Made by a program: the position numbers. Below are positions 47,401 to 50,400 of a stretch of 64,000 bases of DNA, in pieces. The DNA lies in NCBI RefSeq assembly GCF_024700885.2, contig NZ_CP117016.1. The stretch is one strand, 5' to 3'. Numbering within the stretch: position 1 is the stretch's first letter; each line of letters opens with the position of its first letter. Origin of the DNA: Escherichia coli. Its GTDB lineage: Bacteria; Pseudomonadota; Gammaproteobacteria; Enterobacterales; Enterobacteriaceae.

Positions 47401-50400
47401 CGGTTCTACTACCTTCAGAAGCAGGCGTTTGGCGGCAAGGTGGCAGAGCACAGCTTCGGTACCTCCACCACATCCCCGCCACGCTTCAACCTGCTACGTA
47501 TTGAAGAAGAACTGTCAGCGGCACACCTGCGGCTTTCCAGAACAGTCATAGAACACATGGACTGGCAACAGTGCATTGAGCGTTATGATCGTCCGCACAC
47601 GCTGTTCTACTGCGACCCACCGTACCTGGGTACGGAAGGCTATGGTGTGGATTTTCCTGAAGGGAACTACTCGCGGCTGGCAGAGCTGGCCCGGTGCATC
47701 AGAGGAAAAATGATAATTTCGGTGAACGACATCCCGCAGATGCGCGAGGTGTTCACTGGACTGAACATACAGACAGTGAATATCAACTACAGTCTGGCGG
47801 GTAAACCCACGCCGCGCCGTGAACTGCTAATCTGCAACTTCTGAAACAAAACCGGAAAGCACAATGCTTTCCGGTAAACCAAACAACTTCCACTATGTCA
47901 CTGGCGATGTTTTCTGAAAGCATCCAGATCAACCACCTGTCCTTTGTGTCCGGGTCAGTATCAGCCTGCGATTTTTCCTGGTTTTGGCTGAGTATAGAAT
48001 CGCCCAATCTCAAGAAATGAGCGTTGTTGGTCTGGTGTCATGTCGTCAAAAGTATCTATTAGTTTTTGTTTTTCTGGGGAAATTTGATTCTGGTTTCTAG
48101 TCATACCATCTGTGCTCATTCCAGTGAGCAACCAATTTACATCAACATTAAACTCTTGATGCATCTTTAACAGAAACTCCCCTCCAGGCATCGCCTTTCC
48201 ATTTTCAATCTGACTGATACCACCATTAGAAATACCTAAACGAGCTGCAAATTCTCTCTGGTTCAACCCTGCTTTCTTCCTCACAGAAATAACGCGCTCT
48301 CCTATATCTTTGCTCATAAAAGTGAATCTCTATCTTGATATGCTCATAATTATGAGCAATAATCTAACACATATAAGGCAAACATCATTGCATCAACAAA
48401 GGAGACAACGATGACTGCAGAACAAGTCAAAGCTCTCTTCCGCCAGCGCGGGATCACTTTCACCCGCTGGGCAGAAGAAAACGGCTACAACCGCAATGAG
48501 GTATACCGCGTTCTCAACGGGCAGACCAAAGCCCGTTACGGTAAATCCCATGAAATCGCCGTGAAGTTGGGACTGAAATCAACAGCTCAGGCGGCCTAAA
48601 TATTTTGAGTCTTTGTAAAAGGTTATCACATATCGCAAAAGAGGTATGCAGATGAGTAAGACGAATGTTTCAAGCTCCGGCAGTCGCATCCTCCGGGTAC
48701 TCAAAGCGCTGCGCGGTCATGCCCTGAACGGTATTTCTAACGGTGAACTGGCGACAGCACTGCACGAGTCACCGGCAAACATCAACCGGGCACTCAACAC
48801 CCTCATTGAAGAAGGGCTGGCTCTGAAACTGGAGAACGGACGTTTTGCACCGGGCATCCAGTTACTGCAGATCGCCATGGCCCACAGTAACGAGATGGCA
48901 CGTGCACAGGATCGTATTAACGAAATTAACCAACGTGTCATTTCAGGTAGTCGTTTGTAAGGAGTAATCAATGGGACGTACCAAATCACCGATTAACACT
49001 GAACTGAACGCCGATGTACCGCTGTCGGATGATCTCAACGTCAGCCTGAATGCCATGACACAGCATCGCATGGAGATCATGCAGCAGTTTGGTGATGGAC
49101 TGCCTTATGAACGTGAACGCATCGTTCACGAAGCACGTTTTTATATGGCGCAGAGTGCTGAATCTATGTTGGAAGCGGGTAAGCGGCTGATCATCTTAAA
49201 AGAAAATGAACCGCATGGTGATTTCACAAATATTCTGGAAAACGACCTCGGATTAGCACCACAGGTAGCTCGTCGCATGATGCAGGCCAGCGTGAAATTT
49301 CTCGGCAATGGAGATGAACAGCCAAAACGCTCAGCGCTGAGCGTTTTGGGAAAAACCAAGTTATATGAACTGATGGTTCTGGATGACGAAGAACTCGACG
49401 CATTAGCTGATGGTGGAACCGTCGCCGGTGCAACGCTTGATGATATTGATCGCATGACCAGCCGCGAACTGAAGGCCGCCCTGCGTGAAGCGCGCGAAAC
49501 CAACGCAGCTCAGCAACAGGTGCTTGCCGGAAAGGACGAAAAAATCAACGAACTGGCCACAAAACTGGAGAAGAAATCGCGCCTGCAACCTCCGCCGCCA
49601 GACGAAGAACTGAAAAAATTGCGGGCGGAAGTGACGGCATTAGCGGTTGAGGCCGAATCGGCTATCGCCGTCCGGCTGTCCAGTGTTTTTGAGACCCTGT
49701 GTGAATACTGCACCAAAAACATGATCGATACCCCCAGAGATTTCATGGCCGGTCTGGTCTGCCAGATTGAACGCAGTGTTCATGCATTACGTGAGACGTT
49801 TGACCTTGAGGCCGCTCCATCGGGTAACGATGCCCCCGCCTGGCTGACCGAACCGGAACCTGAAATCAACCGACCGGAGGATATGCAGTAATGAATACGA
49901 ATAACACACAAAATACCCTGATGGACAGCCCGGAGGCACTGGGGCACGCACTGTGTAATCTGCTGCCGGAGATGGTGCAGGGTTTCCGCGTGGTGACCCC
50001 TTCCGGTGAAATCTGCGTACCCGCACAGGAGACGCACCCGTTTGTACTGACGATGGAGGTGATGCTGATGCAGCAGATAAGACGTCTGCAGAATCAGTCA
50101 GCATTACGCCCGGTAGTTGCACCGCAACCGGTAAATACCGTGGTGAAAACCTGCGATGGCGAAACACTGTGCGACCTCGCCAGAAAAATTGCCGCCAGAA
50201 TCGGATAACAGGGAAGACAAGCTATGACCCCGGCACTGACTGAAAAACTGGTTGAAACAGCCCGCGCGGCACGTGACGCGGGGCATGGTAAACGCGGTGC
50301 AATATACGACGCTGCCTGTGCTGAACTTGGCATGTCCCGCGCCACTCTGCTGCGCAGGCTGAAGGAGGTATCTGTGACTGATAAACGCAAAAAACGCGCC

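What the first reader, a model, noticed from the sequence alone, without database searches (positions are those of the whole stretch)
48312..48358. Perfect 18-bp palindrome and a related half-site form a likely repressor operator
TGCTCATAATTATGAGCA (48341-48358) is a perfect inverted repeat. The half-site TGCTCATAA recurs at 48312-48320 overlapping the repressor start codon. This is consistent with dimeric XRE-repressor binding and autoregulation.
Basis: seen in the sequence. Interest (0 to 1): 0.35.

Follow-up and report, generated by a model that had tools for sequence, protein, structure and literature searches.

The report
Prophage repressor operators at early promoter
The palindrome is very probably the main binding site where a transposable E. 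coli prophage's repressor shuts off its early (transposition) genes; it belongs to a set of three related sites, a textbook kind of phage switch not yet described for this phage group.

Summary
TGCTCATAATTATGAGCA (48341-48358) is a perfect 18-bp palindrome.

The window is 100% identical here to Escherichia phage PhiKM, a BcepMu-like transposable prophage found in about 390 complete E. coli genomes. The palindrome (O1) fills the 17-bp spacer of the only consensus-like promoter in the region (TTGATA-17-AATAAT). That promoter points into ner-like, DUF3102 and transposase genes.

The "half-site" is one arm of a full, weaker second operator, O2 (48311-48328, TGCTCA-N6-TGAATC). A third exact TGCTCA-N6-TGAGCA site, O3 (48113-48130), lies inside the repressor gene.

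Across about 45 related loci, O1 changes completely whenever the repressor's DNA-binding domain changes. It does not follow the Ner-like protein (100% identical with a different O1) or the repressor's C-terminal tail. Synonymous codons under the O2 and O3 arms are frozen.

The repressor-operator reading is well supported. Autoregulation is plausible but unproven, because the repressor promoter was not found. This is a new member of a known kind, of modest interest.

The parts
48341..48358 (.). O1: primary operator, a perfect 18-bp palindrome TGCTCA-TAATTA-TGAGCA. It covers the whole 17-bp spacer and the first base of the -10 of the early promoter.
   Evidence: The arms are invariant and the centre varies in four diverged variants. 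It co-varies with the repressor N-terminal domain across loci.
48311..48328 (.). O2: secondary, weaker operator TGCTCA-TAAAAG-TGAATC. Its centre is 30 bp left of the O1 centre. The consensus arm overlaps the repressor ATG and Ser2 codon. The degenerate arm lies in the 5' leader.
   Evidence: Matches O1 at 12 of 18 positions. Both arms are invariant in win, L028, L045/54 and L066 although the flanks diverge. The Ser2 codon AGC is frozen. Most other immunity types have an equivalent site 29-34 bp left of their O1 that overlaps the start of the repressor gene; the L003/L051 type has only a 9-10 of 18 match there.
48113..48130 (.). O3: distal operator TGCTCA-TTCCAG-TGAGCA inside the repressor coding sequence (codons L63-T69, 'LLTGMST'), 228 bp left of O1.
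   Evidence: One of only two exact hits to TGCTCANNNNNNTGAGCA in the window. Present 227-228 bp from O1 in L028, L045/46/54 and L066. Codons L64 CTC and S68 AGC are frozen, against a background where 17% of codons are frozen. Analogous intragenic sites exist in four other immunity types.
48335..48363 (+). Predicted early promoter Pe: -35 TTGATA (48335-48340), 17-bp spacer, -10 AATAAT (48358-48363). The inferred start site is near 48370.
   Evidence: The only sigma-70 consensus match (10 of 12) on either strand in 47800-52000. The same -35 / 17 / -10 frame is conserved in all E. coli-type relatives. The start site has not been mapped.
47961..48317 (-). Immunity repressor gene, 118 aa. N-terminal HTH_3 domain (aa 1-66) of the 434 / P22 c2 type, a linker, and a two-helix C-terminal tail (aa 81-109).
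   Evidence: Pfam HTH_3 E=4.6e-15. PDB 434 repressor E=3e-8. AF2 pLDDT 76.7. Foldseek: P22 c2 rmsd 1.2 A over 65 aa; best full-length hit SinR.
48411..48599 (+). First early gene: Ner-like small DNA-binding protein (BcepMu gp16 family), 62 aa, transcribed from Pe.
   Evidence: NCBIfam TIGR04111, 97.4 bits against a cut-off of 34. PHROG 925. Annotated 'Ner-like antirepressor' in Pseudomonas phage Bise.
48349..48377 (-). Weak candidate leftward (repressor) promoter: -35 CTTATA (48377-48372), 17 bp, -10 CATAAT (48354-48349, inside O1). Speculative.
   Evidence: Found only in a relaxed scan, 8 of 12 matches. Not found by the standard scan. Not conserved in other immunity types.

Best explanation
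The palindrome is O1, the primary operator of the immunity switch of a BcepMu-like (Bcepmuvirus) transposable prophage (100% identical to Escherichia phage PhiKM over the 801 bp compared).

The 118-aa repressor is encoded divergently at 47961-48317. Its N-terminal domain is of the 434 / P22 c2 type. It binds as a dimer to TGCTCA-N6-TGAGCA.

O1 occupies the spacer between the -35 and -10 of the early promoter Pe. Bound repressor therefore excludes RNA polymerase and silences the ner-like / DUF3102 / transposase early operon, which maintains lysogeny.

Two further sites belong to the same system.
- O2 (TGCTCA-N6-TGAATC) lies 30 bp, about three helical turns, to the left. It covers the repressor's own start codon.
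- O3 (exact consensus) lies 228 bp to the left, inside the repressor coding sequence.

Most likely, repressor oligomers held together by the conserved two-helix C-terminal tail bind O1 and O2 cooperatively and loop to O3. This would sharpen repression of Pe. Because leftward transcription of the repressor gene must start in or cross O2 (and probably O1), it would also give negative autoregulation.

Shown here: the sequence anatomy, the promoter-consensus overlap, the co-variation of the operator with the DNA-binding domain, and the synonymous-site constraint.

Inferred: actual binding, cooperativity and looping, autoregulation, and the position of the repressor promoter.
For: 1. Anatomy. The perfect palindrome and the 9-mer repeated three times occur only here. 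O1 exactly fills the spacer of TTGATA-17-AATAAT, the only consensus-like promoter in 47800-52000.

2. Context. The region is 100% identical to phage PhiKM (Bcepmuvirus). The gene order is repressor, then Ner-like, HTH, DUF3102 and rve transposase.

3. Co-variation.
- In 60 distinct upstream regions from relatives, the region from the -10 to the ner ATG is conserved, while the 18 bp in the spacer is a different palindrome in each immunity type.
- TGCTCA..TGAGCA occurs only with repressor N-terminal domains at least 78% identical to the window's.
- Loci with a 100% identical Ner-like protein (L002, L009, L018) carry GGTGAG..CTGCACC.
- Loci with a 97% identical repressor C-terminal tail (L074, L077, L078) carry TGTCTAAATTTTTAGACA.
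- In L066 the repressor-O3-O2-O1 module is joined to a different first early gene.

4. O2. In most types the best or near-best match to O1 in the whole ~3-kb locus lies 29-34 bp to its left, over the start of the repressor gene; the L003/L051 type has only a weak match there. In the window type both O2 arms are invariant in four variants that are only about 70-75% identical in DNA by eye.

5. O3. The exact 12-base consensus occurs twice in 64 kb, at O1 and O3. The pair is kept at 227-228 bp in L028, L045/46/54 and L066. Distal sites that match their own O1 lie inside the repressor genes of the L002, L003/L051, L022/L050 and L008 types, at different codon positions.

6. Synonymous constraint. 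Only 8 of 48 conserved degenerate codons are identical in all four variants. Three of the 8 are the codons under the operator arms: S2, L64 and S68.

7. Protein. HTH_3. 434 repressor E=3e-8. The model superposes on the P22 c2-operator complex at 1.2 A. From my own knowledge, P22 c2 also uses 18-bp operators.
Against: - There is no binding, footprint or transcription-start data for this phage or any close relative. Literature searches found none.
- Pe is only a consensus match.
- No convincing leftward promoter for the repressor gene was found, so the autoregulation step has no defined target.
- O2's degenerate arm overlaps a weak GAGA Shine-Dalgarno-like motif. Its conservation may therefore be partly translational.
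- O3 lies over the conserved 'LLTG' motif, so part of its conservation is due to coding.
- Two immunity types (L004-like and L019/L074-like) show no recognisable O3, so a three-site design is not universal.
- O1-O3 and O2-O3 distances in different types show no common helical phase.
- The oligomeric state of the repressor is unknown.
Confidence: 0.82

Rival explanations
1. The palindrome is the binding site of the Ner-like (BcepMu gp16) protein or of the second early HTH protein (48646-48960). It would act as a Cro-like switch site rather than a repressor operator.
For: In Mu, Ner binds between the divergent promoters (my own knowledge). Both small HTH proteins are encoded immediately downstream.
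Against: Loci with a Ner-like protein 100% identical to the window's (L002, L009, L018) carry an unrelated palindrome. The same second-HTH protein accession (WP_000047758.1) is annotated in L002, L003 and L006, which carry different palindromes. The palindrome changes only with the repressor N-terminal domain. A separate conserved element in the ner leader (48378-48391) is a better Ner-site candidate.
Confidence: 0.05
2. The inverted repeat acts as a nucleic-acid hairpin: an RNA stem-loop in the repressor mRNA leader, or a DNA cruciform. It would not be a protein site.
For: Any perfect palindrome can form a hairpin. If the repressor mRNA starts to the right of O1, the leader would contain UGCUCAU-AAUU-AUGAGCA. 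A genuine co-varying hairpin does exist elsewhere in this operon, at 49323-49350.
Against: The arms never change and show no compensatory substitutions within the immunity type; instead the same arm sequence is reused at three places. O2 keeps one consensus arm and one non-complementary arm, yet both are conserved, which pairing cannot explain. O1 lies upstream of the predicted Pe start, so it is not in the early transcript. There is no Rfam match.
Confidence: 0.04
3. It is a chance palindrome in an AT-rich promoter region with no specific function.
For: One perfect 18-bp palindrome per 64 kb is not rare: simulation mean 0.3, and 22% of runs have at least one. The intergenic region is AT-rich, with 35% GC against 53% for the window.
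Against: The three copies of the 9-mer occur only here, and 0 of 100 shuffles reach 3. There is a second exact 12-base consensus 228 bp away. The arms are conserved across diverged variants with frozen synonymous sites. The same architecture, with type-specific sequences, appears in at least 8 immunity types.
Confidence: 0.02
4. The sites bind the repressor, but their main role is in transposition, as with the Mu operator region, which doubles as the transpositional enhancer (IAS) bound by MuA. Promoter control would be secondary.
For: In Mu the O1-O2 operator region is also the internal activation sequence (my own knowledge). This phage is a transposable phage with an rve transposase.
Against: In Mu this works because MuA and the repressor share a homologous N-terminal DNA-binding domain. 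Here the repressor is HTH_3, and the transposase matched only rve in Pfam, with no similarity to the repressor detected. The operators change with the repressor N-terminal domain while transposases stay related.
Confidence: 0.04

Closest known systems
Operators of the lambdoid 434 cI and P22 c2 repressors (OR/OL)
   Same: The repressor N-terminal domain has the same five-helix HTH_3 fold: 41% identity to the 434 domain, and 1.2 A rmsd to P22 c2 bound to its operator. The sites are dyad-symmetric with conserved outer arms and a variable, AT-rich centre. The length is 18 bp, as in P22 (my own knowledge). The sites overlap the lytic promoter, and several related sites of graded quality occur.
   Different: There are no three tightly packed sites with 3-7 bp spacers. 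A single operator sits in the promoter spacer, a second lies 30 bp away, and a third lies 228 bp away inside the repressor gene. The repressor has no S24 / LexA-like autocleavage domain (118 aa). The half-site sequence TGCTCA is unrelated to the 434 and P22 half-sites. The phage is transposable, not lambdoid.
Phage Mu c-ner switch region (O1-O3, Pe/Pc, Ner)
   Same: The genomic logic is the same. A repressor gene is divergent from an early operon that starts with a Ner-type protein and leads to the transposase. Three repressor sites span the divergent region. The phage type is related.
   Different: The repressor is not homologous to Mu c: it is HTH_3, not the MuA-like winged-helix domain. The sites are simple 18-bp palindromes, not arrays of Mu c consensus repeats. 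One site is intragenic. No IHF site was sought or found.
B3-like Pseudomonas phages (B3, Fc02): pE / pC2 / pC1 region
   Same: They share a homologous Ner-like gene, at 70-76% nucleotide identity. A short divergent region holds overlapping early and repressor promoters. In Fc02 the repressor is also transcribed in lysogens from a distal promoter that reads through this region (PMC9936078). That is a precedent for roadblock-type autoregulation.
   Different: No operator sequences are reported in that paper. Whether the B3/Fc02 repressor and intergenic sequence resemble the window's was not compared here; only the ner region aligns in DNA. No distal leftward promoter could be identified here.
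Looping repressors with a distal operator (TP901-1 CI OR/OL/OD; coliphage 186 CI pR with FL/FR; lambda OL-OR)
   Same: There is a primary site at the lytic promoter plus an auxiliary site hundreds of bp away, partly inside a gene. This suggests loop-stabilised repression (comparison from my own knowledge; sites).
   Different: Looping and higher-order oligomerisation are untested here. The distal site lies inside the repressor's own gene. The repressor is much smaller than 186 CI or lambda CI.
SinR / SinR-like phage repressors (B. subtilis SinR-SinI; SPbeta-type Phi106 repressor-AimX)
   Same: The overall architecture is an XRE HTH domain plus a short C-terminal two-helix tail. The best full-length structural matches are SinR 1b0n_A (E=5.5e-4) and the Phi106 repressor. 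Here the tail is shared among heteroimmune repressors, as expected for an oligomerisation or antirepressor-docking module.
   Different: The full-length superposition is poor (rmsd about 11 A, TM about 0.5), and the tail has no sequence match in the PDB. No SinI-like paralogue of the tail was found in the window.

Membership tests
Phage immunity operator of an XRE (434 / P22 c2-type) repressor | Dyad-symmetric site of 14-18 bp | tested here: met
   Perfect 18-bp palindrome at 48341-48358.
Phage immunity operator of an XRE (434 / P22 c2-type) repressor | Overlaps the core elements of the lytic/early promoter | tested here: met
   It fills the spacer of TTGATA-17-AATAAT, the only consensus-like promoter in the region. 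The promoter is predicted, not mapped.
Phage immunity operator of an XRE (434 / P22 c2-type) repressor | Adjacent repressor gene with an HTH_3 DNA-binding domain of the 434/P22 fold | tested here: met
   Pfam HTH_3 E=4.6e-15. 434 repressor E=3e-8. P22 c2 rmsd 1.2 A.
Phage immunity operator of an XRE (434 / P22 c2-type) repressor | Several related sites of graded similarity in the immunity region | tested here: met
   O2 at 48311-48328 (12 of 18) and O3 at 48113-48130 (arms 12 of 12).
Phage immunity operator of an XRE (434 / P22 c2-type) repressor | Operator sequence co-varies with the repressor DNA-binding domain among heteroimmune relatives | tested here: met
   O1 type tracks the N-terminal domain only. 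It does not track Ner or the repressor C-terminal tail.
Phage immunity operator of an XRE (434 / P22 c2-type) repressor | Specific binding by the repressor and repression of the promoter | not testable with these tools
   Needs EMSA or footprinting and reporter assays. No published data were found.
Mu-type operator region (Mu c repressor O1-O3 / IAS) | Repressor homologous to Mu c (MuA-like N-terminal DNA-binding domain) | tested here: not met
   The repressor matches HTH_3, HTH_19 and Phage_CI_repr only. Its structural neighbours are 434, P22 c2 and SinR.
Mu-type operator region (Mu c repressor O1-O3 / IAS) | Located between a leftward repressor gene and a rightward ner-transposase early operon | tested here: met
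   Gene order.
Lambda-type tripartite OR with PRM activation | Three adjacent 17-bp sites with short spacers, and a repressor with an S24 autocleavage C-terminal domain | tested here: not met
   Only two sites are near each other, with a 12-bp gap; the third is 228 bp away. The protein is 118 aa and has no peptidase S24 match.
Loop-forming repressor systems (TP901-1 CI, 186 CI) | Distal auxiliary operator plus a repressor oligomer larger than a dimer | tested here: inconclusive
   A distal site is present and conserved. The oligomeric state is unknown; only a monomer model is available.
SinR-like repressors | XRE HTH plus a C-terminal helical-hook multimerisation domain | tested here: inconclusive
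   The top full-length Foldseek hit is SinR (E=5.5e-4), but with rmsd 10.9 A. The tail is predicted as two helices, with pLDDT 63-78. It has no sequence match in the PDB.

The most novel reading that the evidence does not exclude
BcepMu-like transposable phages of enterobacteria share a modular three-operator looping switch. An exchangeable 434/P22-type DNA-binding domain, with its cognate O1, O2 and O3 sites, is mounted on a common SinR-like two-helix tail. One operator is embedded in the repressor's own coding sequence and is kept there by selection on synonymous sites. The loop would set both early-promoter repression and repressor dosage. The shared tail could be the docking point for a common antirepressor, so that heteroimmune prophages would be co-inducible.
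Probability: 0.3. Interest if true: 0.45.

Novelty: new member of a known kind. Interest (0 to 1): 0.3.

Why it matters
This prophage is carried, at 99% identity or more over the queried 801 bp, by 389 of 5,426 complete E. coli genomes, including O25b:H4-ST131 strains. Its lysis-lysogeny switch has not been described, and the repressor gene is not even annotated in the GenBank phage record.

Defining O1, O2, O3 and Pe gives:
- precise targets for engineering or curing the prophage;
- a way to predict immunity groups among BcepMu-like prophages directly from sequence, because operator type tracks the repressor N-terminal domain;
- natural orthogonal repressor-operator pairs on a common promoter scaffold, at least 8 types, that could be used as genetic parts.

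Conceptually it is a standard phage operator arrangement. The intragenic operator under synonymous-site constraint is a small but clean example of overlapping coding and regulatory information.

Tried and rejected
- Ner-like or second-HTH protein as the binder: rejected, because these proteins stay identical while the palindrome changes.
- L082 (TGCTCAAAATATTGAGCA): first counted as a window-type operator. Rejected, because its repressor resembles the L074 type and not the window's.
- Search for the repressor promoter: the standard scan found nothing leftward in 47800-52000. A relaxed scan gave only a weak CTTATA-17-CATAAT inside O1. A leaderless promoter (GAGATT as -10) has no -35 and would be covered by O1. 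The question is unresolved.
- An apparent minus-strand ORF between O1 and ner in L066, L049 and L058, which might have located a leftward promoter: in L066 a larger plus-strand early gene of 184 aa occupies that interval, so the idea was dropped.
- SinI-like paralogue of the repressor tail in the window: none found by tblastn. The tail has no PDB sequence match.
- Rfam search of 44000-53000: no match.
- Common helical phasing of O1/O2/O3 across types: none evident.
- Literature on BcepMu, Bcepmuvirus, PhiKM or ST131 Mu-like prophage operators: nothing specific found.
- The 28-bp palindrome at 49323-49350 as a fourth operator: rejected, because the arm spacing is 4 rather than 6 and it co-varies as a hairpin.
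Full report
**1. Observation**

Reading 47700-48900 shows TGCTCATAATTATGAGCA at 48341-48358, a perfect inverted repeat (pair I5). 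The 9-mer TGCTCATAA occurs three times in the 64-kb window: at 48311-48319 and as the two arms of the palindrome. It occurs nowhere else. Shuffles give a mean of 0.47, and none of 100 reach 3.

The copy does overlap CAT at 48315-48317, the start codon of the minus-strand ORF 47961-48317.

A perfect 18-bp palindrome alone is weak evidence. A first-order Markov simulation gives 0.3 per window, and 22% of runs have at least one. The case rests on position, repetition and comparison with relatives.

**2. Context**

- The ORF 47961-48317 (118 aa) carries an HTH_3 domain (E=4.6e-15).
- To the right, on the plus strand, lie:
  - a 62-aa BcepMu gp16-family (Ner-like) protein (TIGR04111, 97 bits; PHROG 925);
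  - an IclR/MarR-type HTH protein;
  - a DUF3102 protein and a small ORF;
  - an rve-domain transposase.
- To the left is a D12-class Dam methylase.
- The 801 bp around the finding are 100% identical to Escherichia phage PhiKM (PQ738613, Bcepmuvirus).
- They are at least 99% identical in 389 of 5,426 complete E. coli genomes, including an O25b:H4-ST131 strain.

The finding therefore sits in the immunity region of a BcepMu-like transposable prophage, between the repressor gene and the early operon.

**3. Promoter**

The consensus scan finds one sigma-70-like promoter on either strand in 47800-52000. It is TTGATA (48335-48340), a 17-bp spacer and AATAAT (48358-48363), on the plus strand, matching 10 of 12 positions. 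The palindrome covers the whole spacer and the first base of the -10. A protein bound there would exclude RNA polymerase from the early promoter (Pe). The transcription start, near 48370, is inferred and not mapped.

**4. Comparative test of who binds**

E. coli genomes hold heteroimmune relatives in which homology to the window begins exactly at the right edge of the palindrome (query position 460 = window 48359).

I fetched seven of these and 80 viral contigs that encode a Ner-like relative. In 60 distinct upstream regions the stretch from the -10 (ATAATCTA...) to the ner ATG is conserved. The 18 bp between -35 and -10 is a different palindrome in each immunity type:

| Representative locus | Spacer palindrome |
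|---|---|
| L002 | GGTGAGGTAATCTGCACC |
| L003 | TATCCCATTTTTGGGATA |
| L004 | TGAGAACAATGGTTCTCA |
| L074 | TGTCTAAATTTTTAGACA |
| L022 | TATACACGTTTGTGTATA |
| L008 | GGTTGAAAATTTTCTACC |

The table settles the question.
- TGCTCA..TGAGCA occurs only where the repressor N-terminal domain is at least 78% identical to the window's.
- Loci whose Ner-like protein is 100% identical to the window's (L002, L009, L018) carry the GGTGAG type.
- Loci whose repressor C-terminal tail is 97% identical (L074, L077, L078) carry the TGTCTA type.
- L053-type repressors share the L002 N-terminal domain but have a different tail, and they keep the L002-type operator.
- In L066 the repressor-operator module is joined to a different first early gene.

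The palindrome is therefore specified by the repressor's DNA-binding domain. It is not specified by Ner, the second HTH protein or the tail.

**5. The 'half-site' is a second operator (O2)**

In most immunity types the best or near-best match to O1 in the whole ~3-kb locus lies 29-34 bp to its left, over the start of the repressor gene. The L003/L051 type is the exception, with only a 9-10 of 18 match there.

In the window this site is 48311-48328, TGCTCATAAAAGTGAATC. It matches O1 at 12 of 18 positions: one consensus arm and one degenerate arm.

Four diverged variants of the window-type module (win, L028, L045/54, L066) are by eye about 70-75% identical in DNA. All keep TGCTCA and TGAATC while the flanks vary.

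The centre-to-centre distance from O1 to O2 is 30 bp (29 bp in L028 and L066), about three helical turns.

**6.

The pattern TGCTCA-N6-TGAGCA has exactly two hits in 64 kb: O1 and 48113-48130. The second lies inside the repressor gene, over codons L63-T69.

The pair recurs 227-228 bp apart in L028, L045/46/54 and L066.

Other immunity types also have a distal site inside the repressor gene that matches their own O1. These sites fall at different codon positions:

| Type | Offset from O1 | Site or match |
|---|---|---|
| L002 | -176 | AGTGCAGATAACTGCACT, itself a perfect palindrome |
| L003 / L051 | -255 / -261 | 13 of 18 |
| L022 / L050 | -191 | 14 of 18 |
| L008 | -259 | 16 of 18 |

The L004-like and L019/L074-like types show no such site.

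Synonymous sites support selection at the DNA level. There are 48 codons with a conserved degenerate amino acid in all four window-type variants. Only 8 use the same codon in all four. Three of those 8 lie under operator arms: S2 AGC (O2), L64 CTC and S68 AGC (O3). Variable positions (L63 first base, T65 third base, M/V67 first base) fall outside the arms.

**7. The protein**

- phmmer against the PDB gives the 434 repressor (E=3e-8) and P22 c2 (E=1e-5) over residues 5-66.
- An AF2 model (pLDDT 76.7) has five N-terminal helices, a low-confidence linker and two C-terminal helices at 81-92 and 95-109.
- Foldseek superposes the N-terminal domain on the P22 c2-operator complex at 1.2 A over 65 residues. 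The best full-length hits are SinR and a SinR-like phage repressor.
- The tail ("SPEKQxLxDAFDxMxPEQRRxxLExG...KPxK") is shared by heteroimmune repressors, whereas the N-terminal domain varies.
- There is no peptidase S24 domain.
- No paralogue of the tail was found in the window.

**8. Mechanism**

- Best supported: a repressor dimer on O1 blocks Pe and silences the ner-transposase operon.
- Probable: cooperative occupancy of O1 and O2, and loop formation with O3 through tail-mediated oligomers.
- Plausible but unproven: negative autoregulation, because leftward transcription must start in or cross O2.
- I could not find the repressor promoter. A relaxed scan gives only CTTATA-17-CATAAT inside O1.
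- In the related B3-like phage Fc02, RNA-seq shows that the repressor is transcribed in lysogens from a distal promoter antisense to ner, and from a promoter overlapping pE (PMC9936078). A read-through arrangement is therefore a reasonable analogy.

**9. Rivals**

- A Ner site is excluded by the co-variation pattern.
- A hairpin function is unlikely. The arms are reused rather than compensated, and O2 conserves a non-complementary arm.
- Chance is excluded.
- A Mu-like enhancer role is unsupported, because no similarity between repressor and transposase was detected in the family scans.

**10. Comparison and novelty**

The system works like a 434/P22-type operator set placed in a Mu-like genomic frame, with a distal auxiliary site reminiscent of TP901-1 or 186. 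It is not a member of the Mu c operator family, because the repressor is not homologous. It is not a lambda-type tripartite OR either.

No description of these operators was found in the searchable literature. I rate it a new member of a known kind, real, and of modest interest.

**11. Seen in passing**

The only other perfect 18-bp palindrome in the window is the core of a 28-bp palindrome at 49323-49350, inside the DUF3102 gene. It is conserved as a palindrome with many compensatory changes across relatives:
- 93% of cells are paired;
- 9 of 12 pairs have changes on both sides;
- the covariation score is 0.54, against 0.16 in shuffles (0 of 500 reach it);
- slid controls score 0.09 or less.

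It is a different, unexplained element and may deserve its own follow-up.

Noticed in passing
window 49323-49350 (also L002 ~2909-2936, L004 ~2461-2488, L008, L022, L076 and others): A 28-bp perfect palindrome, CCAAAACGCTCAGC|GCTGAGCGTTTTGG, lies inside the DUF3102 early gene. Relatives keep a palindrome at the same place but with different stem sequences (at least 12 versions), and the encoded peptide changes to preserve the stem. On 21 sequences, 93% of cells are paired, 9 of 12 pairs have changes on both sides, and covariation is 0.54 against 0.16 in shuffles (0 of 500). It has the shape A-tract, stem, T-tract, so it may be a bidirectional attenuator/terminator or an RNA-processing hairpin within the early operon upstream of the transposase. 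There is no Rfam match.
   Followed up: partly
window 48378-48391: A conserved inverted repeat, GCAAACATCATTGC, lies in the ner 5' leader, downstream of the Pe -10. Relatives show symmetric variants: ACAAACATAGTTGT in L019/L033/L047/L064/L068 and GCAAACTTATGTTTGC in L069. The core TTGCATCA is nearly universal. It is a candidate binding site for the Ner-like protein, or a leader hairpin.
   Followed up: no
window 47961-48080 (repressor aa ~80-118) and loci L002-L078: Heteroimmune repressors share a conserved C-terminal tail of about 40 aa (SPEKQ..DAFD.M.PEQRR..LE.G...KP.K) joined to unrelated HTH domains. Two alternative tails also circulate, for example in L053/L019 and L004. This indicates domain shuffling at the 'LTG' junction, which in the window type is exactly where O3 lies.
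   Followed up: partly
L001 (PhiKM PQ738613) 4767-5334; L004/L005 1041-1502; L006 1562-2020: There are annotation problems. The repressor gene is not annotated in the PhiKM GenBank record, which lists a 41-aa plus-strand ORF there instead. RefSeq start codons of some repressor alleles appear over-extended: into the operator in L004/L005, and across the ner start in L006.
   Followed up: no
L066 891-1445: In this viral contig the window-type repressor/O3/O2/O1/Pe module and the usual ner leader are followed by a 184-aa first early gene (MTADQMKKQL...) instead of the 62-aa Ner-like gene. The Ner-like gene lies 600 bp further on. This is a mosaic junction right after the leader.
   Followed up: partly
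window 47851-47875: A strong terminator-like hairpin (11 pairs; ACCGGAAAGCA TTG TGCTTTCCGGT followed by a T-run, scored on the minus strand) lies between the convergent Dam methylase gene (46990-47844, +) and the repressor gene. Relatives have a different palindrome, GAATGGCCGAT|ATCGGCCATTC, in the upstream part of their loci; its position was not checked.
   Followed up: no
L028 1197-1226: In this variant O3 is embedded in a longer near-perfect palindrome, CATGGTTGCTCACTC|CAGTGAGCAACCATG, with 13 of 14 pairs. The window's O3 has only the 6-bp arms.
   Followed up: no
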